From positions 5,536-69,535 of the forward strand of contig JAJZFS010000048.1 of NCBI GenBank assembly GCA_021805245.1: a stretch of DNA of 64,000 nt. Direction: 5' to 3'. The notes beneath the pieces are model-generated. The model worked only from the letters and a program-made list of their open reading frames with translations, did not search any database and was not told the origin of the DNA. Both the position numbers and the translations under genes were made by a program. Below, one piece after another: positions 26,414 through 47,723 of this stretch. The DNA comes from Pseudomonadota bacterium (lineage in GTDB: Bacteria > Pseudomonadota > Alphaproteobacteria > Micavibrionales > UBA2020). The number at the start of each line of letters is the position of its first letter. The stretch's first letter is position 1.

Positions 26414-27364
26414 ATGATCCCTCCCATGACAGAAGAAACAACCCTGAATAAGGCACATATTCTGCAATCCACCGCCCTCCTCGCCGGCGGCGCGGGTCTG
26501 TGCTGGGTTTCGACGGCGCATCCCGCCTTCCAGCCGCTGTGGATGCCGTGGGATTTCTCGTGGTGCGAATATCTTGCGCCCGCCTTCGCCGCACTATGGT
26601 TTTTTCGCGGCCTGGCCGCCGCAGCCCCGCAGGAGCGCCTGCCCTGGTGGCGCACCCTTTCCTTCCTGCTCGGCCTCGCGCTGATCTACGCCGTGCTGCA
26701 AACGCATTTCGATTTCATGGCGCAGCATATGTTTTTTCTCGACCGCATCCAGCACGTCGTCATGCATCATGAGGGGCCCTTTCTGATCGCGCTCAGCGGC
26801 GCGGGGGAAACACTGCGGCGGGGCATGCCGCACTGGGCGCGGCGCATCGCCGACCACCGCTTTTCCACGGCCGCAGTGCGCACGCTCCAGCAGCCTGTGC
26901 TGGCGGTATTCCTGTTCTCCGGCCTGTTTTATTTCTGGCTGATCCCCGCTGTCAATTTCCGCGCCATGACCGACCCGCAGCTTTATTTCCTGATGAACGC
27001 CAGCATGACGCTCGACGGCCTCCTCTTCTGGACGCTGGTGCTCGACCGGCGCCCCAGCCCTCCGGCGCGTATTTCATTCGCCGCACGGGCGGTTTTGAGC
27101 ATCGCCGTGATGTTTCCGCAGATCATCCTCGGTGCCTTCATCGCTTTTTCCGATCATGACATCTACCCCTATTACAATCTCTGCGGACGGATTTACCCCT
27201 CTATCAGCGCCGTCACCGACCAGCACATCGGCGGCATCGTCAGCTGGGATCCGCCCAGCATGATGAGCATCATCGGTTTTATTACCGTTCTGAATTTTTA
27301 TAGATTGTCGGAAGACAGAAAAGAAAAGAAGGCTATATCTACTTCCAGTCCACAAGCCGCGTAA
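26414..27364 (+). CDS. Cytochrome c oxidase assembly protein, Caa3-CtaG-like polytopic membrane protein
   Basis: Internal ATG of ORF 26117..27364. Multi-TM protein with QHVVMHHEGPFLIAL, LDGLLFWTLVL and DQHIGGIVSW, the pattern typical of this family. Confidence 0.65.
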   Translation: MIPPMTEETTLNKAHILQSTALLAGGAGLCWVSTAHPAFQPLWMPWDFSWCEYLAPAFAALWFFRGLAAAAPQERLPWWRTLSFLLGLALIYAVLQTHFDFMAQHMFFLDRIQHVVMHHEGPFLIALSGAGETLRRGMPHWARRIADHRFSTAAVRTLQQPVLAVFLFSGLFYFWLIPAVNFRAMTDPQLYFLMNASMTLDGLLFWTLVLDRRPSPPARISFAARAVLSIAVMFPQIILGAFIAFSDHDIYPYYNLCGRIYPSISAVTDQHIGGIVSWDPPSMMSIIGFITVLNFYRLSEDRKEKKAISTSSPQAA

Positions 27365-27959
27365 GATCCGCCGCCGTGCCTGCGAGATCCGGCTTGTCGC
27401 CCTCCAACTTCGACAACAGCAGCCGCACGCTGCCGTCGCGGCCAAAAACGTAAACGCCGGCGCTGTGCGTCACGACATAAGGTTTGCCGTCTTTCGCCGC
27501 CGTCACGGAATAGGAGATGCGGTAGCGTCGCGCCAATGCCGCCAGCTGGTCGGGCGTGCCGCGCAGCGCATCGAACCCCGGCCCGAAAAGGGATTCATAC
27601 CGCTTTAAAACGGCGAGCGTGTCGCGTTTCGGATCGACGGTCACGAACAGCACGCGCACGGCGGCGGCCTTGCCGTTCATCTCTTTCACAACATCGGCGA
27701 TGGACGACAAGGTGCGCGGACAGGCGTCGGTGCAAAAACTGTAGCCGAAATAGAGCAGCGTGACTTTGCCGCGGTAGTCTTGCGCCGTGACCGTTTTGCC
27801 GTCACGCGCGCGCGTCATGGTGAAGGAAAGGCGCGGTAAAGTGCCCGTCATATCGGTATTGTTCCATGAACTTCCGGAGCGGCAGGCCGTCAGCCCCGTC
27901 AGGACCAAGACAACGAAAAACGCGCCGGTCAGCGCGCGCTTAAAGGCCGCCGGCGACAT
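27339..27959 (-). CDS. SCO1/SenC-family copper chaperone (thioredoxin fold), lipoprotein
   Basis: FFVVLVLTGLTAC lipobox, LLYFGYSFCTDACP (CxxxCP) and VTHSAGVYVF (copper-ligand His). The start at 27959 is preferred over 28010. Confidence 0.8.
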   Translation of the reverse strand: MSPAAFKRALTGAFFVVLVLTGLTACRSGSSWNNTDMTGTLPRLSFTMTRARDGKTVTAQDYRGKVTLLYFGYSFCTDACPRTLSSIADVVKEMNGKAAAVRVLFVTVDPKRDTLAVLKRYESLFGPGFDALRGTPDQLAALARRYRISYSVTAAKDGKPYVVTHSAGVYVFGRDGSVRLLLSKLEGDKPDLAGTAADLTRLVDWK

Positions 27960-28104
27960 GACGGTGCAGCTCCTCATAATGGACGAAAATCGCAATTGCG
28001 AAGGTGACAACGAATATCCCCGCGACGATAACGGCCAGCGCGATGCCGAAACGGCGGTTGCGCCTTTGCATCTCGTCCTGCTGCGGAGTTTTTTGCGGGT
28101 CCAT
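27940..28104 (-). CDS. Small single-TM protein (54 aa), not in the ORF track
   Basis: My translation is MDPQKTPQQDEMQRRNRRFGIALAVIVAGIFVVTFAIAIFVHYEELHRHVAGGL. It starts 4 nt after the cysNC stop and overlaps the SCO start by 20 nt. Confidence 0.4.
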   Translation of the reverse strand: MDPQKTPQQDEMQRRNRRFGIALAVIVAGIFVVTFAIAIFVHYEELHRHVAGGL

Positions 28105-28108
28105 CACG

Positions 28109-30010
28109 TTATCTTTCGGCAGAGGCTTCTTTATAAGTCAGTTGGGACAATCCCCGCGCGTTTTGGAGAACATGATCGACGATCATGCCGACGCATTCAT
28201 CCACATCGTTTTCAGACGTATCGACGACCAGCTCCGGCGTCTCCGGCGTCTCATAGGGTGATGAAATGCCCGTGAAATCCTCAATCGCGCCACTGCGCGC
28301 TTTTTTATAGAGGCCCTTGGGGTCGCGCTTTTCGCAGGTGTCGAGGTCGGCCTTGACGTACACTTCGTGAAATCCCGCCCCCGCAGCCGCGCGCGCGGCG
28401 CGGCGGTCGGCCAGAAACGGCGAGATGAAGGCCGTAATTACGATCAACCCCGCATCCGCCATCAAGGCCGCCACTTCGCCGATGCGGCGGATGTTCTCAC
28501 TGCGGTCTTTCGCCGTGAAGCTGAGATCGGCATTGAGGCCGCGGCGGACATTGTCGCCGTCCAGAACATAGGTTTGCATGCCTTTGGTATGCAGGGCGCG
28601 CTCGACGCGCATGGCGAGCGTCGATTTGCCCGCGCCGGAAAGGCCCGTCAGCCACACCACCATGCCGCGGTGCCCGTTGCGCAAGGCGCGCGCCTCTGCC
28701 GTCAGCAGGTGGTCAACGGCAGTGAGGTTCTCCTGCGTCGCCAGACGAAGGGCGCGCAGATCGGCAAGTCCGTCCATGTTGATAATGCCGCCGCCGACCA
28801 CGTCCTGATGTTCGATGATGACGGCGCGGCCGGTGTCATGATTGTCCGCAAAGGGGTCGAGCGCGATCGTCTCGCGGCTGTGAAAGGTGACGACCGCCAT
28901 CTCGTTGACGGCAACGAAGTCTTTCTCGGCGCGCGCCAAATCGCCCGTGTCGATCACGCGGTCGATCGACTGCACTGTGACCGTTGCTTCCGCCGTGGCC
29001 AGCTTGATCTTGTAGCGCTTTCCGGCACGGAGCGGCTCCTTGCCGAGCCAGAAGATATTGGCGCGGAAATCGTGGGTCAGCATCGGCGCCTGTTCGGCGT
29101 GGCTGGCGACATCGCCGCGCGCGGCGTAGATCGGCTGGTCGAGCGTGATGCCGACCGACTCGCCCGCCTGCGCGGAGAGAATATCATGCGGCGCGTTCCA
29201 TTTTTCGATCGACGTCACGATCGCCGAGCGGTTCGACGGCGAAAATACCAGCGTGTCGCCTTTGCGCAAAACGCCCGAGGTGATGCGCCCGACGATGATG
29301 CGCCGTCCGTCGAAACGGTAAACGTCCTGCACCGGAAAACGCAGCGGCTTTTCCACCGGCGGCGCGGCGGGCGAGAAGGTATCGAGCTGCTCGAGAAGAG
29401 ACAGGCCCTTGTGCCACGGCATCTTGTCCGATTTTTTCGCGATATTGTCGCCTTCGCGCGCCGCGATGGGGATGATGGCCTGCGGCGCGATGCCGATATC
29501 GGCAAGATAGGCCGTAATTTCGCCCCTCACTTCATTGAAGCGTTTTTCGCCGTAGCCGACGGAGTCCATCTTGTTGATCGCCACGACAACCTGCTTCAGG
29601 CCCAAAAGGTGCAGGATATAGGCGTGGCGCTTGGTCTGCTCGCGCACGCCTTCGGCGGCGTCGACGACGAGAATGGCGGCATCGGCGAAGGACGCGCCGG
29701 AGATCATGTTCTTCAAAAATTCGCGGTGGCCCGGCGCGTCGATGATGACGTAGGGGCGCTTTTTGCTTTTGAACCAGATCTGCGTGGTGTCGATGGTGAC
29801 GGCCTGGTCGCGCTCGGCCTGAAAGGCGTCGAGCAGGAACGACCACTCGAACGGCACGTTGCGGCGCGCGCAGGAGGCCCGCACTTCTTCGAACTTCCCG
29901 TCCATCAGGCTGTCAGTATCGTGCAGCAGGCGACCGATCAGCGTCGATTTGCCATGATCGACATGACCGACGATAACGACACCGACTTTTTCTTCCTGCT
30001 TCGCCATCAC
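28109..30010 (-). CDS. cysNC: Bifunctional sulfate adenylyltransferase subunit 1 / adenylylsulfate kinase (CysN-CysC, NodQ-like)
   Basis: 633 aa; GTPase motifs GHVDHGKST and DAPGH, plus a C-terminal APS kinase P-loop GLSGAGKST. Confidence 0.92.
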   Translation of the reverse strand: MMAKQEEKVGVVIVGHVDHGKSTLIGRLLHDTDSLMDGKFEEVRASCARRNVPFEWSFLLDAFQAERDQAVTIDTTQIWFKSKKRPYVIIDAPGHREFLKNMISGASFADAAILVVDAAEGVREQTKRHAYILHLLGLKQVVVAINKMDSVGYGEKRFNEVRGEITAYLADIGIAPQAIIPIAAREGDNIAKKSDKMPWHKGLSLLEQLDTFSPAAPPVEKPLRFPVQDVYRFDGRRIIVGRITSGVLRKGDTLVFSPSNRSAIVTSIEKWNAPHDILSAQAGESVGITLDQPIYAARGDVASHAEQAPMLTHDFRANIFWLGKEPLRAGKRYKIKLATAEATVTVQSIDRVIDTGDLARAEKDFVAVNEMAVVTFHSRETIALDPFADNHDTGRAVIIEHQDVVGGGIINMDGLADLRALRLATQENLTAVDHLLTAEARALRNGHRGMVVWLTGLSGAGKSTLAMRVERALHTKGMQTYVLDGDNVRRGLNADLSFTAKDRSENIRRIGEVAALMADAGLIVITAFISPFLADRRAARAAAGAGFHEVYVKADLDTCEKRDPKGLYKKARSGAIEDFTGISSPYETPETPELVVDTSENDVDECVGMIVDHVLQNARGLSQLTYKEASAER

Positions 30011-30804
30011 ATATACCCACTCTGGCGCAGACGTTCGAAGCTGTCTTCGGTCTCGCTGTCCATGGAGCGTCCGGCACGCTCGGAAGTTTTGGTCACTTCC
30101 AGCTCGGCTATGATCTCGTCGATGGTGGAGGCGGCGCTCTTGATCGGGAAAGTGATGTTCTTCTCGCCGAGCGAGCGGAAGCGCATGCCGTTGCGCGAGA
30201 GATAGAGCGGCACGATGGGAATGTTCTCGCGCTGCGTGTAGCGCCAGATGTCGATTTCCCGCCAGTGCAAAATCGGGTGGATGCGCACGTGCGTGTCCTC
30301 GGGGAAGTCGGTTTTATACTGGTCCCAGAACTCGGCAGGCTGGTCTTTATAATCCCACGTGCCGTCGAAACGGCGCGGCGAGAAGACACGCTCCTTGGCG
30401 CGCATGCTTTGTTCATCGCGGCGGATGCCGACGATGATGCCTTTGTATTTTTCGCGGGCGAGCAGGTTTTTGAGTCCCTCGGTCTTGCGCGCGGCGGCAC
30501 GGGTCGCGGGCGGCAGGGTCTGGTCCATCTCCTCTTCGGGCGGGCATTGCTCGATTTTCAGCTCGAAGCCCCAGTCTTTGACCAGTTGGTCGCGGAAGGT
30601 ATAGACCTCATCCTCTTCCATGCCGGTGTCGAGCTGGATCATCGGGAACGGCACGCGGCCATAAAACGCCTTGCGGATGCACCACAGCAGCGCGGTCGAA
30701 TCCTTGCCGATCGACCACAACATGCCGAGCGGCTTGATGCGGTTATACGCCTCGCGCAGGATATAGATGGTCTTCGATTCCAGTTCGTCGAGATGGTCTT
30801 GCAT
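30007..30804 (-). CDS. cysD: Sulfate adenylyltransferase subunit 2 (CysD/NodP-like)
   Basis: 265 aa; PP-loop SIGKDS, and RRDEQSMRAKERVFS. ATGA overlap with cysNC. Shorter than E. coli CysD. Confidence 0.88.
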   Translation of the reverse strand: MQDHLDELESKTIYILREAYNRIKPLGMLWSIGKDSTALLWCIRKAFYGRVPFPMIQLDTGMEEDEVYTFRDQLVKDWGFELKIEQCPPEEEMDQTLPPATRAAARKTEGLKNLLAREKYKGIIVGIRRDEQSMRAKERVFSPRRFDGTWDYKDQPAEFWDQYKTDFPEDTHVRIHPILHWREIDIWRYTQRENIPIVPLYLSRNGMRFRSLGEKNITFPIKSAASTIDEIIAELEVTKTSERAGRSMDSETEDSFERLRQSGYM

Positions 30805-30865
30805 GGGCTGACGGTATCAAATCACCGCCTCATATTCAAACGCGTTCTACATAAAAATGGTGATT

Positions 30866-31635
<770 letters not shown>

Positions 31636-31639
<4 letters not shown>

Positions 31640-33768
31640 GATTTTTCTTCCCCCACTTTGAACGCACGCGGCGGCGCGCCCGCCTGCCAGATCCGCCACA
31701 TGGTCTCGTAAGCGCTTTCAAGATTTGCAACATACCGTTTGATATCGAACAGCGGCGTTGTCAGGCGGTTTTTCGCCAGTTTTTCGCGCACTCCGCGCAG
31801 CCGTTCCGGATCTTGCGCCAGCTGCAGGGCCAGCGCCTCGTATTCCCCGAGAGACGTGGTGATCATCTCCGGCAGGCCGATGGCGGCGAGAAGGCTGCCC
31901 GCCACGCGCCCCGCGAAGGTGTCGCCCGCGCAGGTCAGAACCGGCAGCCCCGCCCAGAGCGCGTCGCTCGTCGTGGTGTGGGCGTTGACGGGCAGCGTAT
32001 CGAGGAACAGGTCCGCACAACGGTGCCGCGCCAGATGCCCCGGCAACAGCAGCCTGGGGGCGAAGACCAGCCTGTCTGCATCAACGCCGCGGGCTTCCGC
32101 CTCACGTTTCAGATTCTCCTTCACGGCGAGATTGGCTTCCAGCAGCCACAACACACTGCCCGGCACATCCTTCAGCAAGCGCATCCAGATATCGAAAAAG
32201 CGCGGGGTGATTTTATAGGTGTTGTTGAAGCAACAGAAAACGAATCCGTTCTCCGGCAAGCCGCAGGCAGCGCGGGACGGCGTATCGGCTATGTCGCGCG
32301 TCGTGTCGTTCGGCTGGTAGCAGTCCGGCAACTGGACGATTTTTTCGCTGTAAAACGGCTGCTGGTCCATCGGCGCAATAAAGGGATCGGCGATGATATA
32401 ATCGATAAAATCGGCGCCCATCGTCGCCGGAAAGCCGAGATAATTGACCTGCACAGGCGCAGGGCAGCGCGCGGGAATGCCGAGGCGTCCGCCCGTCGTG
32501 TAGCCCTTGAGGTCGATAAGGATATCGACGCCGTCATCATATATTTTTTGCGCGGCCTGATCGTCGGTCATCAGGCGCATATCCACGAAACGGTCAAACC
32601 CCTTGAGCAACCTGTCATGCATGTCGCTTTTGTCCTCGCGACCGTAAGAATAGCCCGTGATTTCAAAGCGCTTGCGATCATGCCGCTCGAAAAGCTCGGC
32701 CATCAGGTAGGTCGTGGCATGCGGGTAAAAGTCGGCGGACAGGTAACCGATGCGTATTTTCCCTCCCCCCGACGAATCTATGCGGGACCGCCGGTGACGG
32801 AAGATGGCAGAGGGATGCGCTTCCTCCCTGCTTTTCACGAACGCGCGCCCGCAGACGAGCTGGTCCGCCGGCGTCGACGGCACCGCCAGAAAGCCGAAAG
32901 GCGGAATATTGGTTGCATCAGAGCGCGACATCTCCAGCAGCCTCGCTTCCTGCGCGTCAATGTCCTTCCAGTCGCAAATATGCTGGCGCGCATGCACCAG
33001 ACTGCCCAGGGCGGCGTCGCTCCTGGGATTCAGCTTTAGCGCCTGCGCGTAGTATCTGGCGCACATGTCCTGCCGCCCCTGCCTTTTATAGGCCTCGCCG
33101 AGATTGAGGTAGGCATCGAAAAAGTCGGGCTTGAGGGCGACCGCCTTCTCGTACTGCGTCACCGCGTCGTCGTACAAAAGGTCTTCCAGCAGGGAGTTGG
33201 CCAGATTGAAGTGTGCGAGGGTATAGTCCGGCTTGAGGATGATCGCTTTCATGAACAGCGCCGCCGCCGCGTCGCGCATGTCCAGCTTCTTGAGGACCAC
33301 GCCAAGGTCGCTGCAGGCCTCGGCGTTATTCGGCTGGATTTCGAGCAGGCGCTCGAGCGGCACGCGCGCCTCGCGCCACCGGTTCTGGCCGATAAGCATG
33401 ATACCCAGATTGCTATAGGCCTCTATATGGTCCGGCTGGAGCGCGAGGGTGCGGTTGTATTCCTTTTCGGCGGCGGAAAATTTTCCCTGTTTTTGCAGCG
33501 CCAGCGCCAGATGATAGTGAAAAACGGCAATATCGTCTTTTCCCTTGATGGCTTTTTTGAAGAACCCGACGGCATCGTCATAACGTTCTTCCTGCGCCGC
33601 CAGAATGCCGAGAATATGAAAGGCGCCCGGATATTTCGGCGACAGGGCAAGAATTTTCCCGCAGACTTCCTCTGCCGCGGCCGTTTTTCCGGCCTGCACA
33701 TGCGCCGCGGCCAATTGCATCATTTGCGAAATAGTATCCGTGGATATCTGAGAACTCGTCTTTGCCAT
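31636..33768 (-). CDS. TPR-repeat + GT41 (OGT/SPINDLY-like) glycosyltransferase; candidate flagellin glycosyltransferase
   Basis: 710 aa. The N-terminal ~280 aa are TPR repeats. The C-terminal region reads FVFCCFNNTYKITPRFFDIWMRLLKDVPGSVLWLL...NAHTTTSDALWAGLPVLT, the GT41 catalytic signature. It lies immediately downstream of the flagellin gene. Confidence 0.8.
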
Positions 33769-33848
33769 ATCCTGAAACTTTCCAACCCCCGCGCCTCATC
33801 ATGCCACAGCGCCCCTGCCGGAGGCAAAAAAAAGAAACTCATGAGCGC

Positions 33849-33880
33849 AAAAAAGAACCGGCGGATTTTAACCCGCCGGC
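33849..33880 (-). terminator. Intrinsic terminator downstream of the flagellin gene
   Basis: Minus strand reads CCGGCGG-GTTAAAAT-CCGCCGG followed by TTCTTTTTT. Confidence 0.6.
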
Positions 33881-33909
33881 CCTTTTCAAGTTTGTTGGCG
33901 AAGCCGTCC

Positions 33910-35145
33910 TTAAGCGAACAGACGGAGCACCGATTGGTTGGCCTGCGAAGACAGGGACAGGGCCTCGATACCGAGTTGCTGCTGCGTTTGCAGAGCCAGC
34001 ATGTTGGCGCCCTCCTGGTTCTTGTCTGCAATCACCAGCGAAGAAGAGCCGTTTTGCAGCGTGTTAATCAGGTTGGTCGTGAAGTCCTGACGGTTCTGGA
34101 TCAGGGACAAGCTGTTCGCAAAGCTGGTCGCCTGAGTTTGCAGTGTCGTGATCGCCGCATTGATCTTGCTGATACTCGTATCAATGTTGGTGCTAGACGT
34201 CCACGTACTGGCGTTGGCATCGAGACCGAGACCGCTCACCGCCGTCAAGTCGACGGATTTAACGGTAATCGGGTTGGTGCTCAGTTCGTTCACCTGCACA
34301 GTCAGATTGTTACCTTTACCATCGATCAGGTTGTTGCCCTGATAGTTCGAGTCGGTAATCGTCTGGTCGATCTGCGTAAGGATGTTTGCGTAGGACGCGA
34401 TATCCGTCGCATCGCTGCCGCCGGTCTTGACAACCTGAGAAGTAGCCCCCAAACCAATATACTTCAAAACGTTGGCCGTGGAACCCGTCGTACTGATTGC
34501 CTGACCGTCCGTCGAAACGATGTTGAGGTAAGCGCTCCCCACAGCCAGCGTCGCACCGTTCGGAGCACCGGCAGTGTTAACGGAGGCCGACGACAGCGTC
34601 TTGCCGTCACCGTAGATGATGCTGGCGCTGAAGCCCGTCGTCTGGTTGATCGCGTCGACCAGACCCTGCAGGGTTTCGCCACTGGCGATGGTGAAGGTCG
34701 CCTGCGGGTTGGTGCCGTCCGTCAGATTGAGCGTCGAACCACCCGTGATGCTGCCCGACGTCAAGTTGGCCACCAACGAGGACGACATACCGGAAGAACC
34801 CGCCGTCTCCAACGTGTTGACCGAGGTTGTCTGGGTCAAGTCGGTTTTGGCGGTGTTGGCGACAGACGTCAGCTGGTGCACGAGAGAAGTGATACTCGTG
34901 ATGCCTTGGTTGACCGCCTGAATGGTCTGAATGGCCTGACCCATGCCATCGAGAAGGGATGAAAGGGCCGAAGCGCGCGTGCTCAGAGCTTGTGAAGCGA
35001 AGTAGTTGACCGGATTGTCCAGAGCCGAGTTGACTTTGTTACCGGTAGAAAGAGCGAGCTGCGTGGTGCCCAATTCATTTGCAGTGTTCTGCAAGCTGAG
35101 AAGGTTGGCACGCATTGCCGCTGTAAGGGTGATTGTACCTGACAT
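33910..35145 (-). CDS. Flagellin
   Basis: 411 aa with conserved N-terminal (LSTGNKVNSALDNPVNYF..) and C-terminal (..LQTQQQLGIEALSLSSQANQSVLRLF) flagellin D0/D1 segments. The central domain is Ser/Thr-rich. Confidence 0.93.
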   Translation of the reverse strand: MSGTITLTAAMRANLLSLQNTANELGTTQLALSTGNKVNSALDNPVNYFASQALSTRASALSSLLDGMGQAIQTIQAVNQGITSITSLVHQLTSVANTAKTDLTQTTSVNTLETAGSSGMSSSLVANLTSGSITGGSTLNLTDGTNPQATFTIASGETLQGLVDAINQTTGFSASIIYGDGKTLSSASVNTAGAPNGATLAVGSAYLNIVSTDGQAISTTGSTANVLKYIGLGATSQVVKTGGSDATDIASYANILTQIDQTITDSNYQGNNLIDGKGNNLTVQVNELSTNPITVKSVDLTAVSGLGLDANASTWTSSTNIDTSISKINAAITTLQTQATSFANSLSLIQNRQDFTTNLINTLQNGSSSLVIADKNQEGANMLALQTQQQLGIEALSLSSQANQSVLRLFA

Positions 35146-35211
35146 AATGATGTTCCTTTTCTAAGGTTAGCAATAAGACGGGGAATCCTATCCCAGTCAT
35201 ATTTCCATGCT

Positions 35212-35238
35212 ATCATCGCAGCGGTTAACGGGCGGTTA
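35212..35238 (-). promoter_or_regulatory. Candidate sigma28 (FliA)-type promoter of the flagellin gene
   Basis: Minus strand reads TAAC-N15-GCGATGAT, against the consensus TAAA-N15-GCCGATAA. It sits about 65 nt upstream of the ATG. Confidence 0.4.
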
Positions 35239-35502
35239 ACGAGCCTCCACAGGGGATTAATGTATAACTAACATATTGATTTTTTATATAATTTGCATAG
35301 CCATATTATCGCTTTCCGTGCCGTACAGTTCGCCCGCTTGCGCGACTGTAGGTAGGGCGCGAATCCTCTCCATTCCCCCGCACCTATAAGCCAACATACT
35401 GATATTCAATAATTACTTTGTATTGCGGGGCGCCTGTGCAAGGATAAGCGGCGATGGGTGCAAAGCCAGACCCCTGCGGCGCGCCCCAAGATAAGGATTC
35501 CC

Positions 35503-36549
35503 ATGCCCAAACATCTTCTCTCCATCGGAATGCCTTCCAACAGGAATCTGACGGCCAGCTCGAAAGCCATTTCCAGCGCGCTCGCTTATTGCCGCGCAGA
35601 AGGGTATCAGTTTGTCGTGTCGGACAATTCCGGCGATGCGGCAAAAGAAAAAGAACATGCGGCGGCGTTTCAAGATGACAACCTGCATTATATTAAAAGC
35701 CCGCCCTGCGGCGTGATCGAAAACTGGCAGCGCGCCTTTGACGCGACGGACGGCGCGTTTGTCCTGATGATGGGCGACGACGACAGTTTCTTCAGTTTTG
35801 CGCCGGAGCCGGATTTTGACAAAGTAGAAGACCACGTCGCCGCCATCAAACCGGCCGTTTTCTCTTACACGGAGACCATCGGCATCCAGAAAATTGACAG
35901 CATGCCGATATTGTCGCAAAACGCGGCGTCGCGCATCCTGGAGAACCTGAAGAACGCCAGCGGCAGCAACCTCGGTTTTTTTAGCTTCTGGCGGCGGGAG
36001 GTGCTGAAATCGGTCATGGATCTGTGGATGATCCATCACCCGACCAAGGGCTCCTATATCGACTGGGCGGCAATGGACGGGCTCATTTCCTCCGGCACCG
36101 CAATCCTGCATCCGTCGGTCTGCTATTGTTACAACCTGCAAAACTGGTCGGGCACACGAAACGAAATCAACACGGAAGTGGACAGGCACTTCGTCAACGC
36201 CGGCCTGCCGCGGGGATCAGGCGCGTATCAAGTCCTGTTTATGGGGATTGACTCCTTCATCTTCGTTGGCCGGAAGGATTCGCCCATCCCCACACTGGAG
36301 CGCGAGCAGGCCGCGACCACCGGCCTTAGTGTTTACCTGCAGAATTACATACGGGGCCTCCCGCAATCATCGCCGCACGAAAACGCGGAAGAAATCGCAG
36401 CGCTCTCCCAAAAACTCATCGGCAACGATTCGGTGGAAAAGATTTTCAAAGCCATATCCGACATTCTCGACGCCATCCAGCCGGGGCTCGGAAGAAAATA
36501 CCGGGATTATTATGAGTTCGCCATCGGCAAACCGTGGGGGACGTTTTGA
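35503..36549 (+). CDS. GT-A fold glycosyltransferase (family 2-like)
   Basis: MPKHLLSIGMPSNRN.., FVVSDNSGD and VLMMGDDD (DxD) motifs. Divergent from the flagellin gene. ATG 35503 lies within ORF 35458..36549. Confidence 0.6.
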   Translation: MPKHLLSIGMPSNRNLTASSKAISSALAYCRAEGYQFVVSDNSGDAAKEKEHAAAFQDDNLHYIKSPPCGVIENWQRAFDATDGAFVLMMGDDDSFFSFAPEPDFDKVEDHVAAIKPAVFSYTETIGIQKIDSMPILSQNAASRILENLKNASGSNLGFFSFWRREVLKSVMDLWMIHHPTKGSYIDWAAMDGLISSGTAILHPSVCYCYNLQNWSGTRNEINTEVDRHFVNAGLPRGSGAYQVLFMGIDSFIFVGRKDSPIPTLEREQAATTGLSVYLQNYIRGLPQSSPHENAEEIAALSQKLIGNDSVEKIFKAISDILDAIQPGLGRKYRDYYEFAIGKPWGTF

Positions 36550-39365: not shown

Positions 39366-40271
39366 ATGCGCGGAACCGAATTCGCCGAGCTGGATGCCTT
39401 CGTCGCCGTCGCCGAACGGCTGAACTTCGCGCGCGCCGCAACCGCGCTCGGCCTCGCCCCTTCGACATTAAGCCAGACCATCCGCGCGCTGGAAGACAGG
39501 TTGGGCGTGCGCCTGCTCAACCGCACCACGCGCAGCGTCTCGCTGACCGAAGCGGGCGAGCGGCTTCTCGCACGCATCCGCCCGGCCTTTGCCGATCTCA
39601 ACAGCGCCGTCGCCGCCGTCAACGACTTCCGGCAAAAACCCGCGGGCACGCTGCGCCTCAGCGTTTCGACCATCCCCGCGCACATGATCCTCGCGCCGCT
39701 GCTCAAAAAATTCATGGCCGCCTACCCTGCCATCACGCTCGATGTGACGGTGGACGACGCCTCGGGCGATATTGTCGGCGGCAGTTTTGACGCCGGCATC
39801 CGCTACGGCAAGCGCATCGCGCAAAACATGCTGTTGGTGAAGGCCAGTCCGCAGTCGCGCATCGTCGCCGTCGCGTCGCCGGACTATCTCGCCCGCCACG
39901 GCGCGCCGGAAACGCCGCATGACTTGCAAGATCACGATTGCATCCGTTTCCGGCTCGGCACAGGGCAACTGCTGCCGTGGGAATTCGGCAAGGGCAAAAG
40001 GAAGATGGAAGTGGCCGTGAGAGGCCCGCTGATCGTCAACAATCCCGACCTGATCGTTGCCGCCGCGCGCGATGGCGTCGGCATCGGCTATATGGTCGAG
40101 GCCTATGTTGCGGAAGATATCCGCAAGGGCAGGCTCATCCCCATGCTCACCGACTGGTCGCCGCTCTACCGCAGTTATTACCTTTACTACGCCAGCCGCC
40201 ACCACCTGTCCGCCCCTTTGCGCGTATTTATCGCCTTTTTGAAAGCGCAGAGCGGCGGGGAAGCTTCATAA
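39366..40271 (+). CDS. LysR-family transcriptional regulator
   Basis: N-terminal HTH (FVAVAERLNFARAATALGLAPSTLSQTIRALE) plus a LysR substrate-binding domain. Confidence 0.92.
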   Translation: MRGTEFAELDAFVAVAERLNFARAATALGLAPSTLSQTIRALEDRLGVRLLNRTTRSVSLTEAGERLLARIRPAFADLNSAVAAVNDFRQKPAGTLRLSVSTIPAHMILAPLLKKFMAAYPAITLDVTVDDASGDIVGGSFDAGIRYGKRIAQNMLLVKASPQSRIVAVASPDYLARHGAPETPHDLQDHDCIRFRLGTGQLLPWEFGKGKRKMEVAVRGPLIVNNPDLIVAAARDGVGIGYMVEAYVAEDIRKGRLIPMLTDWSPLYRSYYLYYASRHHLSAPLRVFIAFLKAQSGGEAS

Positions 40272-40422
40272 AAAATCTTGACGCCAGCCTTTAAGTTTTT
40301 GTTTTTAAATACAAAATTCAACTTTTTCTGCCATGTGTATTTTCAGAAAGTAATTGCATAACTTATATGGATTTGCTAGGGTGCGCAAACGCAAATGCCC
40401 CGCCCTTGAAGGAGAATAACTT

Positions 40423-41205
40423 ATGCCCCCCGTTTCCGGTCAAAACTCTGATGGTCAGACACCACCGCAACATCTTTATACGCAAAAATCACCTGCCGAC
40501 GTCGTGCTGACGGCGCACTTCAACGAAAAAGGGCAACAAACGACAAAAAGCGTCGGCCATCCGTGGCGTTATTTCATTGCCAACGGCGAAGCGCTTGAAA
40601 AAATCGAACAGTTCATCAAGGACAGCCAAAACGTCGGGGCCATATACCAGGCGTTCGCCGATTCCGTCGGCGCAAAAAAATATAACGGACGCAGCTTCGC
40701 GTTTGACTTCGACATGAAGGATCTCGAACAGATCGAGAACCAGTCCAACATGCGCTTCAAGAAAGATACCGATTTTGTGACGCCCTGCATGTCGATGGGC
40801 GACTTTTATCCGGACCGGGAAACGCCACGGGGTAAAGAAATTGGCGAAAAAGCCCAGCAACTGCAAACGCTACTCTATCCCGAGCGCCGCTTTGCCGCAT
40901 GGCTCGGCAATGTGAACGTCGACACCAACGAACACGGCCACCCGCGCTTTGGCGGGCACGACAAGAAATCGGCGGAAATCGAAAGGATCGGCGATCTCTG
41001 GATTATCAAAGTGCCCGTCGTCGGCAAAGGCGTATACGGCGCCGACGGTAAAGGCGGCATGCTCTCCGGCTACGAAGACAGCTGGACCATCCCGCCGAAT
41101 TCAACGCCCATCAAAATTTCCGATTACTTCAAACTGTTGGAAGACGCGAACGCTCTCAGCCAGATGCCCAATACACAAAAACCCGCGCCAAAGCCGAAAT
41201 TATGA
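40423..41205 (+). CDS. Hypothetical protein (260 aa), first gene of the low-GC accessory region
   Basis: Strong RBS AAGGAG 8 nt upstream. I recognise no domain. Confidence 0.5.
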   Translation: MPPVSGQNSDGQTPPQHLYTQKSPADVVLTAHFNEKGQQTTKSVGHPWRYFIANGEALEKIEQFIKDSQNVGAIYQAFADSVGAKKYNGRSFAFDFDMKDLEQIENQSNMRFKKDTDFVTPCMSMGDFYPDRETPRGKEIGEKAQQLQTLLYPERRFAAWLGNVNVDTNEHGHPRFGGHDKKSAEIERIGDLWIIKVPVVGKGVYGADGKGGMLSGYEDSWTIPPNSTPIKISDYFKLLEDANALSQMPNTQKPAPKPKL

Positions 41206-41616
41206 GCGCCGCCTTTCATATCCAAGCCGCGCGCCTGCCCGCATTTTCTTTCATTTTGCGATAGACGCACAGGAGCAAGCGTATCCCAAAGTATACGGAC
41301 GCGATGCCCTCCCAGAATGGAGTAGATGCCTTTAAAAACCGGCAGCGATTGCCGATCGTCGATAGACGGTGCCCTCGGACAGTCTTCAGTCCGGTCACTT
41401 GTGCCTGCTGATCAAGGCTGTCCTCTGCAACCGTCTCTTTTGTGCTAATTGGAAAGATCAGTGCCGCTTTTTCAGGCGGCTTGGACGGGTGACCCTTCTC
41501 CATCAGGACAATGGAAACATTCTTTATATCCTTTTGTTGTTGATAGGGAACAATGATTTCTACGGATATTACTGTAACGCTAGGCCAGTGCAGCACACCA
41601 ACTACAGGAGCGGAAC

Positions 41617-42189
41617 ATGATCAACCTACGCAATATTGTTATGGCCTTTATAGTGATGGCGGCAACGGCCCTCCCGCTCGGCACGATGAATTCCGCCCAC
41701 GCGGCAACTGCCAAGGATCTGGACAAGGATTCCAGCCAGGCTTTGGCAAGGCTTTACAAAACCAATTCACTGGCACAAGACCTTTCCCACAAAGCCAAGG
41801 CTATTCTCGTCTTCCCGAATATTGTGAAGGCCGGCCTTATTTTCGGCGGCAGCTATGGCGAGGGGGAATTGCTGGTGGGCTCGAAAGTTGACGGATATTA
41901 CAACTCCGTGGGCGCGTCCTGGGGTTTGCAGGCGGGCGCCCAGTCCTATGGTTACGCCGTATTCCTGATGACAGATAAAGCCGTGAAGTATGTTCATGAT
42001 ACGCATGGCTGGGAAATCGGCGTGGGCCCGACGGTTGTCGTGGTCGACTCAGGGGTCGCCAAGAATCTTTCAACCTCTACGCTGAAAGACGACGCCTATG
42101 CCTTTATCTTCAGCCAGCAGGGCTTGATGGCTGGGATTAGCATTGAAGGAACAAAAATTTCCCGCATTAAAAAAACCAGCAAAAAGTGA
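41617..42189 (+). CDS. SYLF (Ysc84-like, DUF500) lipid-binding domain protein, secreted
   Basis: Signal peptide ..MNSAHA; ILVFPNIVKAGLIFGGSYGEGELL...SWGLQAGAQSYGYAVFLM is the typical SYLF sequence. Confidence 0.75.
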   Translation: MINLRNIVMAFIVMAATALPLGTMNSAHAATAKDLDKDSSQALARLYKTNSLAQDLSHKAKAILVFPNIVKAGLIFGGSYGEGELLVGSKVDGYYNSVGASWGLQAGAQSYGYAVFLMTDKAVKYVHDTHGWEIGVGPTVVVVDSGVAKNLSTSTLKDDAYAFIFSQQGLMAGISIEGTKISRIKKTSKK

Positions 42190-42221
42190 AACACGGCATA
42201 TTCAGCCCACAGGAGGGTCAC

Positions 42222-42863
42222 ATGAAAAGCAAGCTTGTTTTCTCGGCCATCGGCCTCGTCTTCTGCCTTGGCGTCGTCGCGCTCCCGAGCCCTGCGGCAC
42301 ACGCGCAACAGGCCATGGGGTCTTTATACTATTATCCGATCCCCCGATCGGAAATCCAGAAGCATTACCAGGGGTGGGCGACATTCATGGAATCAGAGAG
42401 CCGCGAGCCATGCCAGAATTATCAGGCCCCGCCCGCAGGATATGAGATGAAGGGGTGCCATCTTTCGCGCAGCACAGAAGCCATCGCCTGGCTGACGCCG
42501 GCGGCGGGCGCGCCGGGGCATGCCTATACGATCCTTTTTGACTTGAATAAGTCGAGTATCCGCAGCGGCGCAGAAAACAAACTTGACCAAATTGCGCGTG
42601 AAATACAACGTGAAATACAAGCGGATCCCCAGACAGAAGTTACTGTTTCCGGCTTCGCAGACAGGTCCGGCAGTAAAAAATATAACCAGGCCCTGTCGGA
42701 AAGAAGGACGCAAGCTGTTGTTGAGGCCCTTGCTGCACGAGGCGTCACGGTTGAAGCAGGCAATCAAAGATCGTACGGCGAAACCGGGGCCGCAGCCGTC
42801 GCAACTGCTGACGGCATCAGCAGACAGGAAAACCGGCGCGTCGTGGTTTACTTTGCCCGTTAG
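42222..42863 (+). CDS. OmpA-family peptidoglycan-binding protein
   Basis: Signal peptide ...SPAAHAQ and a C-terminal OmpA_C domain (VTVSGFADRSGSKKYNQALSERRTQAV). Confidence 0.8.
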   Translation: MKSKLVFSAIGLVFCLGVVALPSPAAHAQQAMGSLYYYPIPRSEIQKHYQGWATFMESESREPCQNYQAPPAGYEMKGCHLSRSTEAIAWLTPAAGAPGHAYTILFDLNKSSIRSGAENKLDQIAREIQREIQADPQTEVTVSGFADRSGSKKYNQALSERRTQAVVEALAARGVTVEAGNQRSYGETGAAAVATADGISRQENRRVVVYFAR

Positions 42864-42897
42864 GCGATAGGGTTTTGCAAACGTGAAAGGAAAAAGC

Positions 42898-43074
42898 ATG
42901 CTGCGGTGGGCTTTAATATTTCTGGTGTTTGCATTGATTGCGGGCGTGCTCGGGTTTGGCGGCATTGCCGCCGGAGCAATGGAGATTGCGCGCATCCTGT
43001 TCGTCGTTTTCCTTGTTCTGTTTATCATCGCGGCGGTCATGCACGTCTCGCACGGCAAGCTTCCGCCGACTTGA
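42898..43074 (+). CDS. UPF0391/DUF1328 small membrane protein
   Basis: [27 protein letters not shown]... is the canonical family N-terminus. Confidence 0.8.
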
Positions 43075-43181
43075 ATGACGGCAGAGCTTTTGTTTTCCGA
43101 TTGCGCAGCGGCGCACCGGTAAAAGCGCCGGGATCGAGATGCGCGAAAAGAGTGTCACGAACAATTAAAAAGGAGATTATC

Positions 43182-43421
43182 ATGAGAATATCATCTTTTG
43201 TTACAGCAAGATCCCTCGTCATGTATGTCTGCATTCTATCGCTCGCGGCATGCGCCAATATGACTGATACGCAGCGGCGCACACTCACCGGCGCAGGGGT
43301 GGGTGCCGGTGTCGGCGCCCTCGGCGCGTCCGTAACGGGGGGCAACGCCATTGGCGGCGCCGCTCTGGGTGCCGGCGTCGGCGCCGTCGGCGGCTATGTT
43401 TACGATCAGTCAAAGAAGTGA
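43182..43421 (+). CDS. Glycine-zipper lipoprotein (OsmB/YMGG-like)
   Basis: AGGAG RBS, lipobox LSLAAC, and GAGVGAGVGALGASVTGGNAIGGAALGAGVGAVGG. Confidence 0.75.
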   Translation: MRISSFVTARSLVMYVCILSLAACANMTDTQRRTLTGAGVGAGVGALGASVTGGNAIGGAALGAGVGAVGGYVYDQSKK

Positions 43422-43494
43422 AGCCGACAAAAGAAACGCATAAAAAAATCGCTGCGAGAGGGGTACCGTCCCCGTAACCACAACCGAAAAGGAG

Positions 43495-43713
43495 ATGTAT
43501 GCTATGAAACAAGACATATTCGAGGGCGACTGGAAGAAGCTTAAAGGCGAAGTCCGGAAACAGTGGGGCAAGCTGACGGACGATCACCTCGAGAGAATCA
43601 ACGGTAGCCGCGAAAAGCTGGTTGGCGAGATTCAGAAACATTACGGCATTGCCCGCGAAGAAGCGGCAAGGCAAGTAAGGGAATGGGAGCGCGCCCATAA
43701 AAAGGCGGCTTAA
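43495..43713 (+). CDS. CsbD-family stress protein
   Basis: GDWKKLKGEVRKQWGKLTDDHLERINGSREKLVGEIQKHYG is the canonical CsbD sequence. Confidence 0.88.
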   Translation: MYAMKQDIFEGDWKKLKGEVRKQWGKLTDDHLERINGSREKLVGEIQKHYGIAREEAARQVREWERAHKKAA

Positions 43714-43730
43714 TAAGGCTCTTATTTTTT

Positions 43731-43771
43731 GCGGGGCTGGCGTTCATCTTAAAAACGCCAACCCCGCTTTT
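43731..43771 (+). terminator. Intrinsic terminator after csbD
   Basis: 14-bp stem GCGGGGCTGGCGTT / AACGCCAACCCCGC (one mismatch), a 9-nt loop, then TTTT. Confidence 0.7.
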
Positions 43772-43801
43772 AAACACGGCAGCGCAAAACGGGATAATAA
43801 A

Positions 43802-43960
43802 ATGAATACAAGTGCAAATAGCAAGGTTTTACTGTTTCTTATTGCAGTTGCCCTTATCGGAATTTTGACGGTCATGATCATGAACGCCAATAAGAAAACA
43901 TCGGCTGAAAAAGTTAGCAACAGCATTAGCAAGGCAATTGACAACGCCTCTAAAAAATAG
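43802..43960 (+). CDS. Small single-TM protein (52 aa), not in the ORF track
   Basis: My translation is MNTSANSKVLLFLIAVALIGILTVMIMNANKKTSAEKVSNSISKAIDNASKK. The RBS is weak. Confidence 0.3.
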   Translation: MNTSANSKVLLFLIAVALIGILTVMIMNANKKTSAEKVSNSISKAIDNASKK

Positions 43961-43973
43961 CGGCGGAGCGATT

Positions 43974-44612
43974 TTACCGGTTGTAGCGATATTGGGTCTT
44001 TTGAGCCTGCGTGTGCAGATTGTCGCATTTTTTCATCTTATAACACACGAAAAGCGTCACAACGTCGCCGATGGGCCGGATAAAACTGTTCATGCCGAAG
44101 TCCGAGCGTTTTATTTCTCCTGTAACTATAAAGCCGCCCGTATAGGCATCGTCCCTCTTGTTCTGACGCGCCGCAACATCCGGGATTTCGAGAAGAGCAA
44201 GGGTGATAGGCTTCGTTACGCCCCTTAAGGTCAAATTCCCCGTAATCAGACCTGTGTTGTCCGGACCAAGCTTTATTTTATCACTGTGAAAAATCATCTC
44301 CGGATATTTGTCTGCGTCGAATAAAGCGGGGCCGCGTATATCTCTATTCCGCGACTCCACGCCGGTGTCAACGCTGGTCGTTTTTACAATGATGTCGGCG
44401 TGACTGTTTTCAGGATGATCCCGGTCAATGATGAAATCTCCTTTAAAGTCATTAAAGTGGCCGCTAATGTGCAGTATCAGCAGATAACGGATATTAAAGC
44501 CTACATAGGTCAGGTTCTTATCGAAGCCGGTTGTTGCAGGATTTGTCCCGGCCTGTGCGCTTGTTGCGAGCGCGACAAAAGTAAAAATCAAAATTGTGCG
44601 AAATAATTTCAC
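43974..44612 (-). CDS. YceI-family periplasmic polyisoprenoid-binding protein
   Basis: GTG at 44612 gives (M)KLFRTILIFTFVALATSAQA (signal). HISGHFNDFKGDFIID and LTLRGVTKPITL are YceI hallmarks. The ORF track extends to 44750. Confidence 0.75.
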   Translation of the reverse strand: MKLFRTILIFTFVALATSAQAGTNPATTGFDKNLTYVGFNIRYLLILHISGHFNDFKGDFIIDRDHPENSHADIIVKTTSVDTGVESRNRDIRGPALFDADKYPEMIFHSDKIKLGPDNTGLITGNLTLRGVTKPITLALLEIPDVAARQNKRDDAYTGGFIVTGEIKRSDFGMNSFIRPIGDVVTLFVCYKMKKCDNLHTQAQKTQYRYNR

Positions 44613-44803
44613 TGTATTACATCCCCCGTCGCACAAGGCGCCTCTCTGCAGAAATGCATCTTCGATGCATTGAAGACATGATTTATCATACCGCTTATGC
44701 TTTTGTGCCGGTTTGACGGCTATCAAGGTGTTGAAAGAATGCAGTCGCATAGTATGTGACTCAATAATCCCCGCCTCGCGTCATCAATATCACGGGAAGA
44801 ATA

Positions 44804-46437: not shown

Positions 46438-46496
46438 GCGGATTTCATCCTTTTTCGCGCTTAAATCAGGCACTATGCTTGAGTGCGGTCGATTCC

Positions 46497-47401: not shown

Positions 47402-47421
47402 AACCGATGACGCGGCTTCGC

Positions 47422-47709: not shown

Positions 47710-47723
47710 GATACAACTCCGAG

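What the first reader, a model, noticed from the sequence alone, without database searches (positions are those of the whole stretch)
28109..36549. PAPS-generating genes (cysD, cysNC, cysQ) are transcriptionally fused to a flagellin / TPR-GT41 / GT2 glycosylation locus
- **Seen:** the order on the minus strand is flagellin, terminator, TPR+GT41 glycosyltransferase, cysQ, cysD, cysNC. The GT41 stop overlaps the cysQ start (ATGA) and cysD/cysNC overlap likewise.
- **Seen:** a GT-A glycosyltransferase is divergent from the flagellin gene, and the flagellin central domain is Ser/Thr-rich.
- **Known:** TPR-glycosyltransferase fusions such as Caulobacter FlmG glycosylate flagellin.
- **Known:** CysD plus CysN-CysC fusions are the NodP/NodQ-type PAPS source for sulfated Nod factors, and CysQ removes the PAP by-product. 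An APS kinase is not needed for assimilation in bacteria that reduce APS directly.
- **Inference:** PAPS made here may feed sulfation of the flagellin glycan or another surface glycan, a modification poorly documented for bacterial flagella.
- **Caveat:** I did not recognise a sulfotransferase in the window.
Basis: partly seen in the sequence, partly recalled or inferred. Interest (0 to 1): 0.6.

Follow-up and report, generated by a model that had tools for sequence, protein, structure and literature searches.

The report
Flagellin glycosylation genes abutting sulfate-activation genes
A flagellin gene with two dedicated glycosyltransferases sits directly upstream of the bacterium's sulfate-activating genes (cysQ, cysD, cysNC), but comparison with relatives suggests a recent chance joining of two separate modules rather than a pathway that sulfates the flagellum.

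Summary
The gene order is real. On the minus strand it runs flagellin, a strong terminator, TPR-GT41, cysQ (ATGA overlap), a 61-nt spacer, then cysD and cysNC (overlapping). A GT-A glycosyltransferase lies divergent from the flagellin gene. The block is conserved in four to five uncultured alphaproteobacterial lineages.

The proposed sulfated flagellin glycan is poorly supported:
- The same short CysD/CysNC subfamily is the general sulfate-activation module across Rhodospirillales-like genomes. In about 26 Azospirillum loci it sits in a cysH(APS reductase)-cysD-cysNC operon, so a CysN-CysC fusion does not mark a dedicated sulfation pathway.
- The conserved unit is the trio flagellin + GT41 + GT-A. 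In the nearest outgroup sample this trio occurs without cys genes, while cysQ-cysD-cysNC lies beside a sulfotransferase island.
- No sulfotransferase is present in the 64-kb window or in any copy of the block.
- The co-directional gene string continues 4 nt after cysNC into cytochrome-oxidase assembly genes, which have no link to sulfation.

A PF03567 sulfotransferase with intact PAPS-binding motifs does exist elsewhere in a sibling genome, in a GT2/dTDP-sugar cluster. PAPS is therefore probably consumed, most likely for another surface glycan. Flagellin sulfation is not excluded (about 10%).

The parts
35503..36549 (+). GT-A fold (GT2-like) glycosyltransferase, 348 aa (the longest ORF starts at 35458). 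It is divergent from the flagellin gene.
   Evidence: PF00535 marginal (23.7 bits); 20 of 60 family members hit PF00535. AF2 pLDDT 96. Foldseek matches to RmlT, TarS, TarP, SpsA and K4CP. A 56%-identical homolog lies directly after flagellin-GT41 in L095.
35146..35240 (-). Nearly invariant flagellin upstream region: TTAACC-N5-TTAACC, GATGATAG, then a leader of about 60 nt. It probably holds the flagellin promoter and 5' UTR.
   Evidence: Alignment of four lineages. Promoter class was not established.
33910..35145 (-). Flagellin, 411 aa, Ser/Thr-rich. No other flagellar gene is present in the 64-kb window.
   Evidence: PF00669/PF00700 above cutoffs; NF009330 E=6e-54. S+T 27-30%. No flagellar genes elsewhere in the window.
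33850..33887 (-). Intrinsic terminator after the flagellin gene (GC-rich hairpin flanked by an A-run and a U-run).
   Evidence: -29 kcal/mol, z=-3.4, 0 of 200 shuffles as stable. Conserved in four lineages.
33798..33827 (-). Conserved promoter-like motif for the GT41 operon: TTGCCT, 18 nt, TGgCATGAT.
   Evidence: TTTTTTGCC and CGCTGTGGCATGAT are invariant in four lineages while flanking bases vary. Promoter function is inferred.
31636..33768 (-). TPR + GT41 (OGT-family) glycosyltransferase, 710 aa; putative flagellin O-glycosyltransferase.
   Evidence: PF13844 308 bits plus TPR families. Human OGT 1e-131, XcOGT 2e-101. Lies next to flagellin in all relatives, including L095 at 50% identity.
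30866..31639 (-). cysQ, 3'(2'),5'-bisphosphate nucleotidase, 257 aa. Its start overlaps the GT41 stop (ATGA).
   Evidence: TIGR01331 268 bits against 229. Junction read. The same 4-nt overlap occurs in L001, L005, L008 and L012.
30805..30865 (-). Conserved cysQ-cysD spacer (TTTTATGTAGAAC..TTGAAT..GATYTGATA). No terminator and no Shine-Dalgarno sequence before cysD. It may hold an internal promoter or regulatory site.
   Evidence: Alignment of four lineages plus L013. No Rfam match. Function is inferred.
30007..30804 (-). cysD, sulfate adenylyltransferase small subunit; short 265-aa form typical of this alphaproteobacterial group.
   Evidence: NF003587 317 bits against 195. 80 genome loci carry 71-98%-identical, 265-aa orthologs.
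28109..30010 (-). cysNC, a fusion of the sulfate adenylyltransferase GTPase subunit with APS kinase.
   Evidence: TIGR02034 and TIGR00455 above cutoffs. P-loop GLSGAGKST, DGDN and FISPF intact. Overlaps the cysD stop.
27339..28104 (-). Context only: a 54-aa Coa3-like membrane ORF (27940-28104) starting 4 nt after the cysNC stop, and an overlapping SCO1/SenC gene (27339-27959). These are cytochrome-oxidase biogenesis genes on the same co-directional string.
   Evidence: In L012 two other genes are inserted between cysNC and these genes.

Best explanation
Two independent modules lie side by side.

**Module 1: flagellin modification cassette.** It consists of a flagellin gene with its own promoter and terminator, a TPR-GT41 enzyme and a GT-A glycosyltransferase. 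By analogy with FlmG and OGT, the TPR domain would bind flagellin and the GT41 domain would transfer a sugar to Ser/Thr. The GT-A enzyme probably extends the glycan.

**Module 2: general sulfate-activation set.** CysD/CysN make APS, the fused CysC makes PAPS, and CysQ removes PAP. This set supplies whatever sulfur branches the cell has.

In the recent ancestor of this small clade a rearrangement placed cysQ directly behind GT41. cysQ is now expressed from the GT41 promoter. cysD-cysNC follow after a conserved spacer that may carry its own promoter, and the string runs on into cytochrome-oxidase assembly genes. The PAPS is most likely used by a PF03567 sulfotransferase encoded elsewhere, in a GT2/dTDP-sugar cluster that looks like a surface-polysaccharide locus. 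It is not specifically used for the flagellin glycan.

- **Shown:** gene identities, junctions, synteny and distribution.
- **Inferred:** promoters, enzyme substrates and where the PAPS goes.
For: 1. **The subfamily is the common sulfate-activation module.** Of 80 genome loci carrying this 265-aa CysD subfamily:
   - about 26 Azospirillum loci are cysH-cysD-cysNC, with an APS-reductase-type CysH;
   - about 14 are RmuC/AAA followed by cysD-cysNC-cysQ;
   - about 24 are SapC/Ugd followed by cysD-cysNC-cysQ;
   - only the window clade has flagellin/GT41 nearby.
2. **The cys proteins are far more conserved than the glycosylation proteins across the clade.** CysD is 96-98% and CysNC 87-92% identical. 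GT41 is 70-77%, GT-A 69-76% and flagellin 75-90% identical.
3. **The outgroup separates the two modules.** Sample ERZ26871208 has flagellin (63%), GT41 (50%) and GT-A (56%) on one contig with sugar-biosynthesis genes and no cys genes. It has cysQ-cysD-cysNC (CysD 93%) on another contig, next to two sulfotransferases.
4. **No sulfotransferase is in the block.** None was found in the window or in any copy of the block.
5. **A sulfotransferase exists elsewhere in a sibling genome.**
   - MAG GCA_027362615.1 holds both GT41-cysQ (L007) and an unlinked DUF535-Sulfotransfer_2-GT2-dTDP-sugar island (L104).
   - The sulfotransferase keeps HVPKTAGSS and RDPAERLLS.
6. **The string continues past cysNC.** A Coa3-like ORF and SCO1 follow after 4 nt.
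7. **Precedent.** A single cysD-cysNC set feeds both the reductive and the sulfation branches in M. tuberculosis (PMC3141025).
Against: - The ATGA overlap of GT41 and cysQ is kept in all four to five lineages. The block GT-A|flagellin|GT41-cysQ|cysD-cysNC stays intact while both flanks change. Selection for co-expression would produce this pattern.
- cysQ precedes cysD only in this clade and in L013, where it adjoins sulfotransferases. That hints that this sub-lineage's module is tied to glycan sulfation.
- I could not examine whole genomes. cysH, sulfite reductase and a possible second cysDN set are unverified for this organism.
Confidence: 0.6

Rival explanations
1. The PAPS made by the co-transcribed cysQ-cysD-cysNC is used to sulfate the flagellin O-glycan built by GT41 and GT-A. 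The sulfotransferase would be encoded elsewhere, for example the PF03567 enzyme.
For: - GT41-cysQ translational coupling is conserved, and the block is stable while its flanks vary.
- The APS kinase is intact and CysQ is present.
- A PF03567 sulfotransferase exists in a sibling genome beside genes for a dTDP-deoxy-amino sugar, a sugar class known from flagellin glycans (the sugar-class point is my own knowledge).
Against: - No sulfotransferase lies in the block in any lineage.
- The flagellin/GT41/GT-A trio exists without cys genes in the outgroup.
- The cys module is orthologous to assimilatory-operon genes in Azospirillum.
- The same gene string also contains cytochrome-oxidase genes.
- No sulfated bacterial flagellin glycan turned up in the literature searches; only archaeal archaellins did.
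Confidence: 0.1
2. A dedicated, NodPQ-like PAPS module for sulfating a non-flagellar surface glycan (LPS or capsule), with a separate housekeeping sulfate-activation set elsewhere in the genome.
For: - In L013 the same cysQ-first module abuts Sulfotransfer_1, Sulfotransfer_2, GT2, a methyltransferase and an acyltransferase.
- An orthologous island exists in a sibling genome.
Against: - Each genome in the 80-locus scan contributed only one locus at 71% identity or more.
- High conservation and orthology to Azospirillum cysH-linked genes argue that this is the primary set.
- A second copy could not be searched for.
Confidence: 0.15
3. Purely assimilatory. The organism reduces PAPS (PAPS reductase), the operon serves only cysteine synthesis, and adjacency to GT41 has no meaning.
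For: - The triad cysD-cysNC-cysQ is near-universal in related genomes without nearby sulfotransferases.
- CysQ is needed wherever PAP is produced, including by PAPS reductase (my own knowledge).
Against: - The only CysH seen in this subfamily's neighbourhoods (Azospirillum) is the APS-reductase type.
- A sulfotransferase with intact PAPS-binding motifs is present in a sibling genome.
Confidence: 0.12

Closest known systems
Caulobacter crescentus FlmG flagellin O-glycosyltransferase (PMC7591256)
   Same: A soluble enzyme with an N-terminal TPR domain and a C-terminal GT-B glycosyltransferase domain, in an alphaproteobacterium. In FlmG the TPR domain binds flagellin. Here the gene is linked to a flagellin gene in every lineage examined.
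   Different: - The catalytic domain here is a clear GT41/OGT-family member (human OGT E=1e-131). Homology to FlmG itself was not tested.
- No pseudaminic-acid genes lie nearby.
- A second, GT-A enzyme always accompanies it.
Eukaryotic OGT / Xanthomonas XcOGT (GT41)
   Same: TPR superhelix plus a GT41 catalytic domain. Strong sequence homology across both parts.
   Different: It is genetically tied to a single putative substrate (flagellin). Donor sugar and acceptor are unknown.
Mycobacterium tuberculosis cysD-cysNC sulfate-activating complex with CysQ (PMC3141025, PMC4373884)
   Same: CysD plus a CysN-CysC fusion make APS and PAPS. One set serves both the reductive branch (APS reductase) and the sulfotransferases. 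CysQ degrades PAP.
   Different: Here cysQ is translationally coupled to a glycosyltransferase gene, and the sulfotransferase partner is a PF03567 enzyme in a sugar cluster.
Rhizobial NodP/NodQ (dedicated PAPS supply for Nod-factor sulfation; my own knowledge)
   Same: CysD-like and CysN-CysC-like proteins generate PAPS for a carbohydrate sulfotransferase.
   Different: NodPQ are extra copies linked to nodH on symbiosis replicons. Here there is no linked sulfotransferase, and the genes are orthologous to those in Azospirillum cysH-cysD-cysNC operons.
Sulfated N-glycans on Halobacterium salinarum archaellins (PMC11980604, PMC6591318)
   Same: The filament protein of a motility organelle carries a sulfated glycan, made with dedicated sulfotransferases.
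   Different: The system is archaeal and N-linked, and the organelle is unrelated. Nothing here shows that the bacterial flagellin glycan is sulfated.

Membership tests
GT41 (OGT-type) TPR glycosyltransferase | N-terminal TPR array followed by a Glyco_transf_41 catalytic domain | tested here: met
   PF13844 308 bits (cutoff 25) plus many TPR families. Aligns to human OGT over both TPR and catalytic parts (E=1e-131) and to XcOGT (2e-101).
GT41 (OGT-type) TPR glycosyltransferase | UDP-GlcNAc-dependent O-glycosylation of protein Ser/Thr | not testable with these tools
   Needs enzymology or flagellin mass spectrometry.
FlmG-class flagellin glycosyltransferase | TPR N-terminal domain plus GT-B C-terminal domain, genetically associated with flagellin | tested here: met
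   Architecture. Adjacent to flagellin in five lineages down to 50% identity. FlmG description from PMC7591256.
FlmG-class flagellin glycosyltransferase | Sequence homology to FlmG and dependence on pseudaminic acid synthesis genes | not tested
No neuB/pse-like genes were seen in the window.
Bacterial flagellin | Flagellin_N and Flagellin_C helical domains | tested here: met
   PF00669 31.6 bits (cutoff 26.6) and PF00700 26.9 bits (cutoff 23). NF009330 E=6e-54, though below that model's cutoff.
GT-A / GT2 glycosyltransferase | GT-A Rossmann-like fold with a DxD motif | tested here: met
   AF2 pLDDT 96. Foldseek probability 1.0 to RmlT, TarS, TarP, SpsA and K4CP. Nearly invariant D41-N-S and D92-D-D. 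The Pfam GT2 match is only marginal.
CysD/CysN ATP sulfurylase with fused APS kinase (CysNC) | CysD PAPS_reduct-fold subunit, CysN GTPase and an APS-kinase domain with an intact P-loop | tested here: met
   NF003587 317 bits against 195; TIGR02034 353 against 336; TIGR00455 251 against 139. The bifunctional model NF004035 scores 623, below its cutoff of 715. GLSGAGKST, DGDN and FISPF are present.
CysQ PAP phosphatase | Equivalog-level match to the 3'(2'),5'-bisphosphate nucleotidase family | tested here: met
   TIGR01331 268 bits against 228.8. DPLDGT and WDTAAG motifs present.
NodP/NodQ-type dedicated PAPS supply | Genetic linkage to the sulfotransferase it serves | tested here: not met
   No Sulfotransfer_1/2/3 domain or homolog was found in the window or in any copy of the block. 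Linkage is seen only in outgroup L013.
NodP/NodQ-type dedicated PAPS supply | An extra copy alongside a housekeeping cysDN/cysH set | not testable with these tools
   Whole genomes could not be read. Only one locus per genome appeared at 71% identity or more. Orthologs in Azospirillum are themselves the cysH-linked set.

The most novel reading that the evidence does not exclude
The flagellin O-glycan made by the GT41 and GT-A enzymes is sulfated. PAPS would come from the module co-transcribed with GT41, and the unlinked PF03567 sulfotransferase would add the sulfate. This would be the first sulfated glycan on a bacterial flagellin, and the operon fusion would exist to match PAPS supply and PAP removal to flagellin production.
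Probability: 0.1. Interest if true: 0.7.

Novelty: new member of a known kind. Interest (0 to 1): 0.3.

Why it matters
If the sulfation idea were true, it would add a new chemistry to bacterial flagellar glycans, with consequences for phage and immune recognition and for filament charge. The evidence instead points to something modest.

- **A conserved flagellin + TPR-GT41 + GT-A trio.** This is an uncharacterised, OGT-type version of TPR-guided flagellin glycosylation, found in uncultured alphaproteobacteria.
- **A cautionary example.** Overlapping genes and a CysN-CysC fusion do not by themselves indicate a dedicated sulfation pathway.
- **A side result.** This lineage does carry PAPS-dependent sulfotransferases in surface-sugar clusters, so sulfated envelope glycans are likely.

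Tried and rejected
- **Exact look-up of the 710-aa GT41** found nothing. The database calls a start 16 codons later. The upstream ATG is conserved in four lineages, so 33768 is kept as the start.
- **A hidden sulfotransferase in the GT-A protein or elsewhere in the block.** Rejected: the GT-A model is a GT-A fold throughout, and tblastn with both L013 sulfotransferases found nothing in the window or in about 90 loci.
- **A riboswitch or known RNA in the cysQ-cysD spacer or the flagellin leader.** No Rfam match at E<=1.
- **An 8-bp inverted repeat in the window's cysQ-cysD spacer (AAATCACC/GGTGATTT).** It is not conserved in the other lineages and is treated as chance.
- **A sigma-54 reading of the conserved TGGCAT motif upstream of GT41.** The -12 position is not conserved across lineages. 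A sigma-70-like extended -10 fits better, but this is unproven.
- **The consensus terminator scan** did not list the flagellin terminator. Direct folding shows it clearly.
- **Linking the sulfotransferase contigs to the window's own genome by accession** failed because no accessions were returned.
  - The link is direct only for sibling MAG GCA_027362615.1.
  - For the window lineage it rests on co-occurrence in sample ERZ27237415 and a matching source pattern, so it is inference.
- **Finding cysH, sulfite reductase or a second cysDN in this genome** was not possible with the capped look-ups.

Full report
**Observation**

On the minus strand:
- flagellin, 33910-35145;
- a TPR+GT41 protein, 31636-33768;
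- cysQ, 30866-31639;
- cysD, 30007-30804;
- cysNC, 28109-30010.

A GT2-like gene, 35503-36549, lies on the plus strand, divergent from the flagellin gene.

The junctions were read directly:
- The GT41 stop and the cysQ start share ATGA.
- cysD and cysNC overlap as ATGTGATG.
- The flagellin gene is followed by a GC-rich hairpin and a U-run that folds at -29 kcal/mol, z=-3.4.

Two details differ from the finding. First, cysQ and cysD are separated by a 61-nt spacer, with no Shine-Dalgarno sequence before cysD. Second, the co-directional string continues after cysNC. A 54-aa Coa3-like membrane ORF starts 4 nt after the cysNC stop and overlaps SCO1.

The flagellin is 27-30% Ser+Thr, against 11% in other window proteins.

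**The glycosyltransferases**

The GT41 protein aligns to human OGT over both its TPR and catalytic parts (E=1e-131) and to Xanthomonas XcOGT (2e-101).

The divergent 348-aa protein gives only a marginal Pfam GT2 score. It belongs to a small family: 231 representatives among 1.84 billion. The family has nearly invariant DNS and DDD motifs. The AlphaFold2 model is confident (pLDDT 96) and matches GT-A enzymes such as RmlT, TarS, TarP and SpsA. It is a glycosyltransferase, not a disguised sulfotransferase.

**The rest of the window**

Profile scans of the other genes in the 64 kb found:
- histidine-utilisation genes;
- an EmrAB efflux pair and a LysR regulator;
- cytochrome-oxidase assembly genes;
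- an alternate ATP synthase operon;
- PHA synthase.

They found no sulfotransferase, no cysH, no sulfite reductase and no other flagellar gene.

**Conservation of the block**

Exact and near relatives come from uncultured alphaproteobacterial MAGs and metagenomes. The order GT-A | flagellin | GT41-cysQ | cysD-cysNC is identical in these lineages:

| Lineage (loci) | GT41 identity | CysNC identity |
|---|---|---|
| L001-L004 | 100% | 100% |
| L005-L007 | 77% | 92% |
| L008-L011 | 70% | 87% |
| L012 | about 70% (similar distance) | 87% |

The 4-nt GT41/cysQ overlap is kept in all of them. The flanks differ. Upstream, EmrAB is replaced by a histidine kinase or an ABC transporter. In L012, two genes are inserted between cysNC and the Coa3-like ORF.

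Alignment of the intergenic regions shows:
- an invariant terminator after the flagellin gene;
- an invariant motif TTGCCT-N18-TGgCATGAT just before GT41, which I read as the operon's own promoter (inference);
- an almost invariant flagellin upstream region;
- a conserved cysQ-cysD spacer, which could hold an internal promoter or regulatory site (inference).

**Is the cys set special?**

A scan of 185,579 species genomes with the window's CysD returned 80 loci at 71-98% identity, all with the same short 265-aa form. I clustered their neighbouring ORFs and annotated the recurrent clusters. This gave three common contexts:
- About 26 Azospirillum loci have cysH-cysD-cysNC. That CysH carries CCHLRKTVPL, SIGCYTCT and ECGIH, the iron-sulfur APS-reductase signature.
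- About 14 loci have RmuC/AAA followed by cysD-cysNC-cysQ.
- About 24 Micavibrio-like loci have SapC/UDP-glucose dehydrogenase followed by cysD-cysNC-cysQ.

Flagellin/GT41 linkage appears only in the window's own clade. The CysN-CysC fusion is therefore a lineage-wide trait. It occurs even in a plainly assimilatory operon that does not need PAPS, so it cannot be read as a marker of a NodPQ-like dedicated supply. The cys proteins are also far more conserved across the clade (CysD 96-98%) than the glycosylation proteins (69-90%).

**The outgroup separates the two modules**

The nearest relative with cysQ in front is L013 (CysD 93%, CysNC 76%). There, cysQ-cysD-cysNC lies beside Sulfotransfer_1, a hexapeptide acyltransferase, a TylF-type methyltransferase, Sulfotransfer_2, GT2 and DUF535.

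A second contig from the same sample, L095, carries flagellin (63% identical), GT41 (50%) and the GT-A homolog (56%) in a row. They sit next to DegT, epimerase, transketolase and GT2 genes, with no cys genes. That the two contigs come from one genome is likely but not proven.

The functional unit conserved over this distance is therefore the trio flagellin + GT41 + GT-A. Its junction with the cys module is a later, clade-specific rearrangement.

**Where might PAPS go?**

The L013 Sulfotransfer_2 has only about a dozen close homologs. Three of them come from the same sample series as the window clade.
- One (P0393, 64% identical) is encoded in MAG GCA_027362615.1. The same assembly holds GT41-cysQ of the 77% lineage (L007; L104).
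- There it sits in a DUF535-Sulfotransfer_2-GT2 island. That island also encodes a dTDP-sugar pathway: nucleotidyltransferase, dehydratase, isomerase, C-methyltransferase, aminotransferase and formyltransferase.
- The other two (P0395, P0398) sit in a different, mutually syntenic context. They are 80% identical to each other.
- All of them keep the PAPS-binding motifs HxPKTAGSS and RDPAERLLS.

The clade therefore has a plausible PAPS consumer, but it is unlinked to the flagellin block and sits in what looks like a surface-polysaccharide locus.

**Literature**

- FlmG of Caulobacter is a TPR + GT-B flagellin O-glycosyltransferase whose TPR domain binds flagellin (PMC7591256).
- Searches for sulfated flagellin glycans returned only archaeal archaellins (PMC11980604, PMC6591318) and nothing bacterial.
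- In M. tuberculosis one cysD-cysNC set plus CysQ serves both the APS-reductase branch and the sulfotransferases (PMC3141025).

**Verdict**

The anatomy is confirmed and the flagellin-glycosylation reading of flagellin/GT41/GT-A is well supported. The link from the cys genes to flagellin glycan sulfation rests only on adjacency. That adjacency is clade-specific, it also extends to unrelated cytochrome-oxidase genes, and no sulfotransferase accompanies it.

The best-supported account is a general sulfate-activation module that came to lie behind GT41 and is partly expressed from its promoter. I give this about 0.6. Flagellin sulfation remains possible, at about 0.1, and would be notable if shown.

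Noticed in passing
window 48821-54853 (+), with 40000-48700: An alternate ATP synthase operon in N-ATPase-like gene order (beta, epsilon, a, b/delta, alpha, gamma). It follows a low-GC stretch (0.47-0.53) that ends in a recombinase fragment at 48201-48617, so this may be a genomic island.
   Followed up: no
L037-L094 (about 24 Micavibrio-like loci), just upstream of cysD: SapC and UDP-glucose 6-dehydrogenase genes sit directly upstream of cysD-cysNC-cysQ. The recurrent linkage could point to sulfated uronic-acid polysaccharides in these predatory-bacteria-like MAGs.
   Followed up: partly
L013:2169-8283; L103:9088-18333; L104:338-9583: A sulfotransferase island (DUF535, Sulfotransfer_1 and/or Sulfotransfer_2, GT2, methyl-, acyl- and formyl-transferases, dTDP-sugar genes). 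It lies next to cysQ-cysD-cysNC in one lineage and is unlinked in a sibling of the window organism.
   Followed up: partly
window 35146-35240 (-): The flagellin upstream region and its roughly 60-nt leader are almost invariant across four lineages whose flagellins are 75-90% identical. It contains a direct repeat, TTAACC-N5-TTAACC. This suggests a conserved promoter plus a post-transcriptional control site.
   Followed up: partly
window 27940-28104 (-): A 54-aa single-pass membrane ORF (weak Coa3 match in a relative) is wedged 4 nt after cysNC and overlaps SCO1. It is conserved in all lineages.
   Followed up: partly
window 8952-12356 (-): A 1134-aa ORF with only a weak TPR match and no other family assignment.
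   Followed up: no
window 60452-62505 (-): A class III PHA synthase pair (PhaC-like alpha/beta hydrolase and PhaE) with overlapping stop and start.
   Followed up: no
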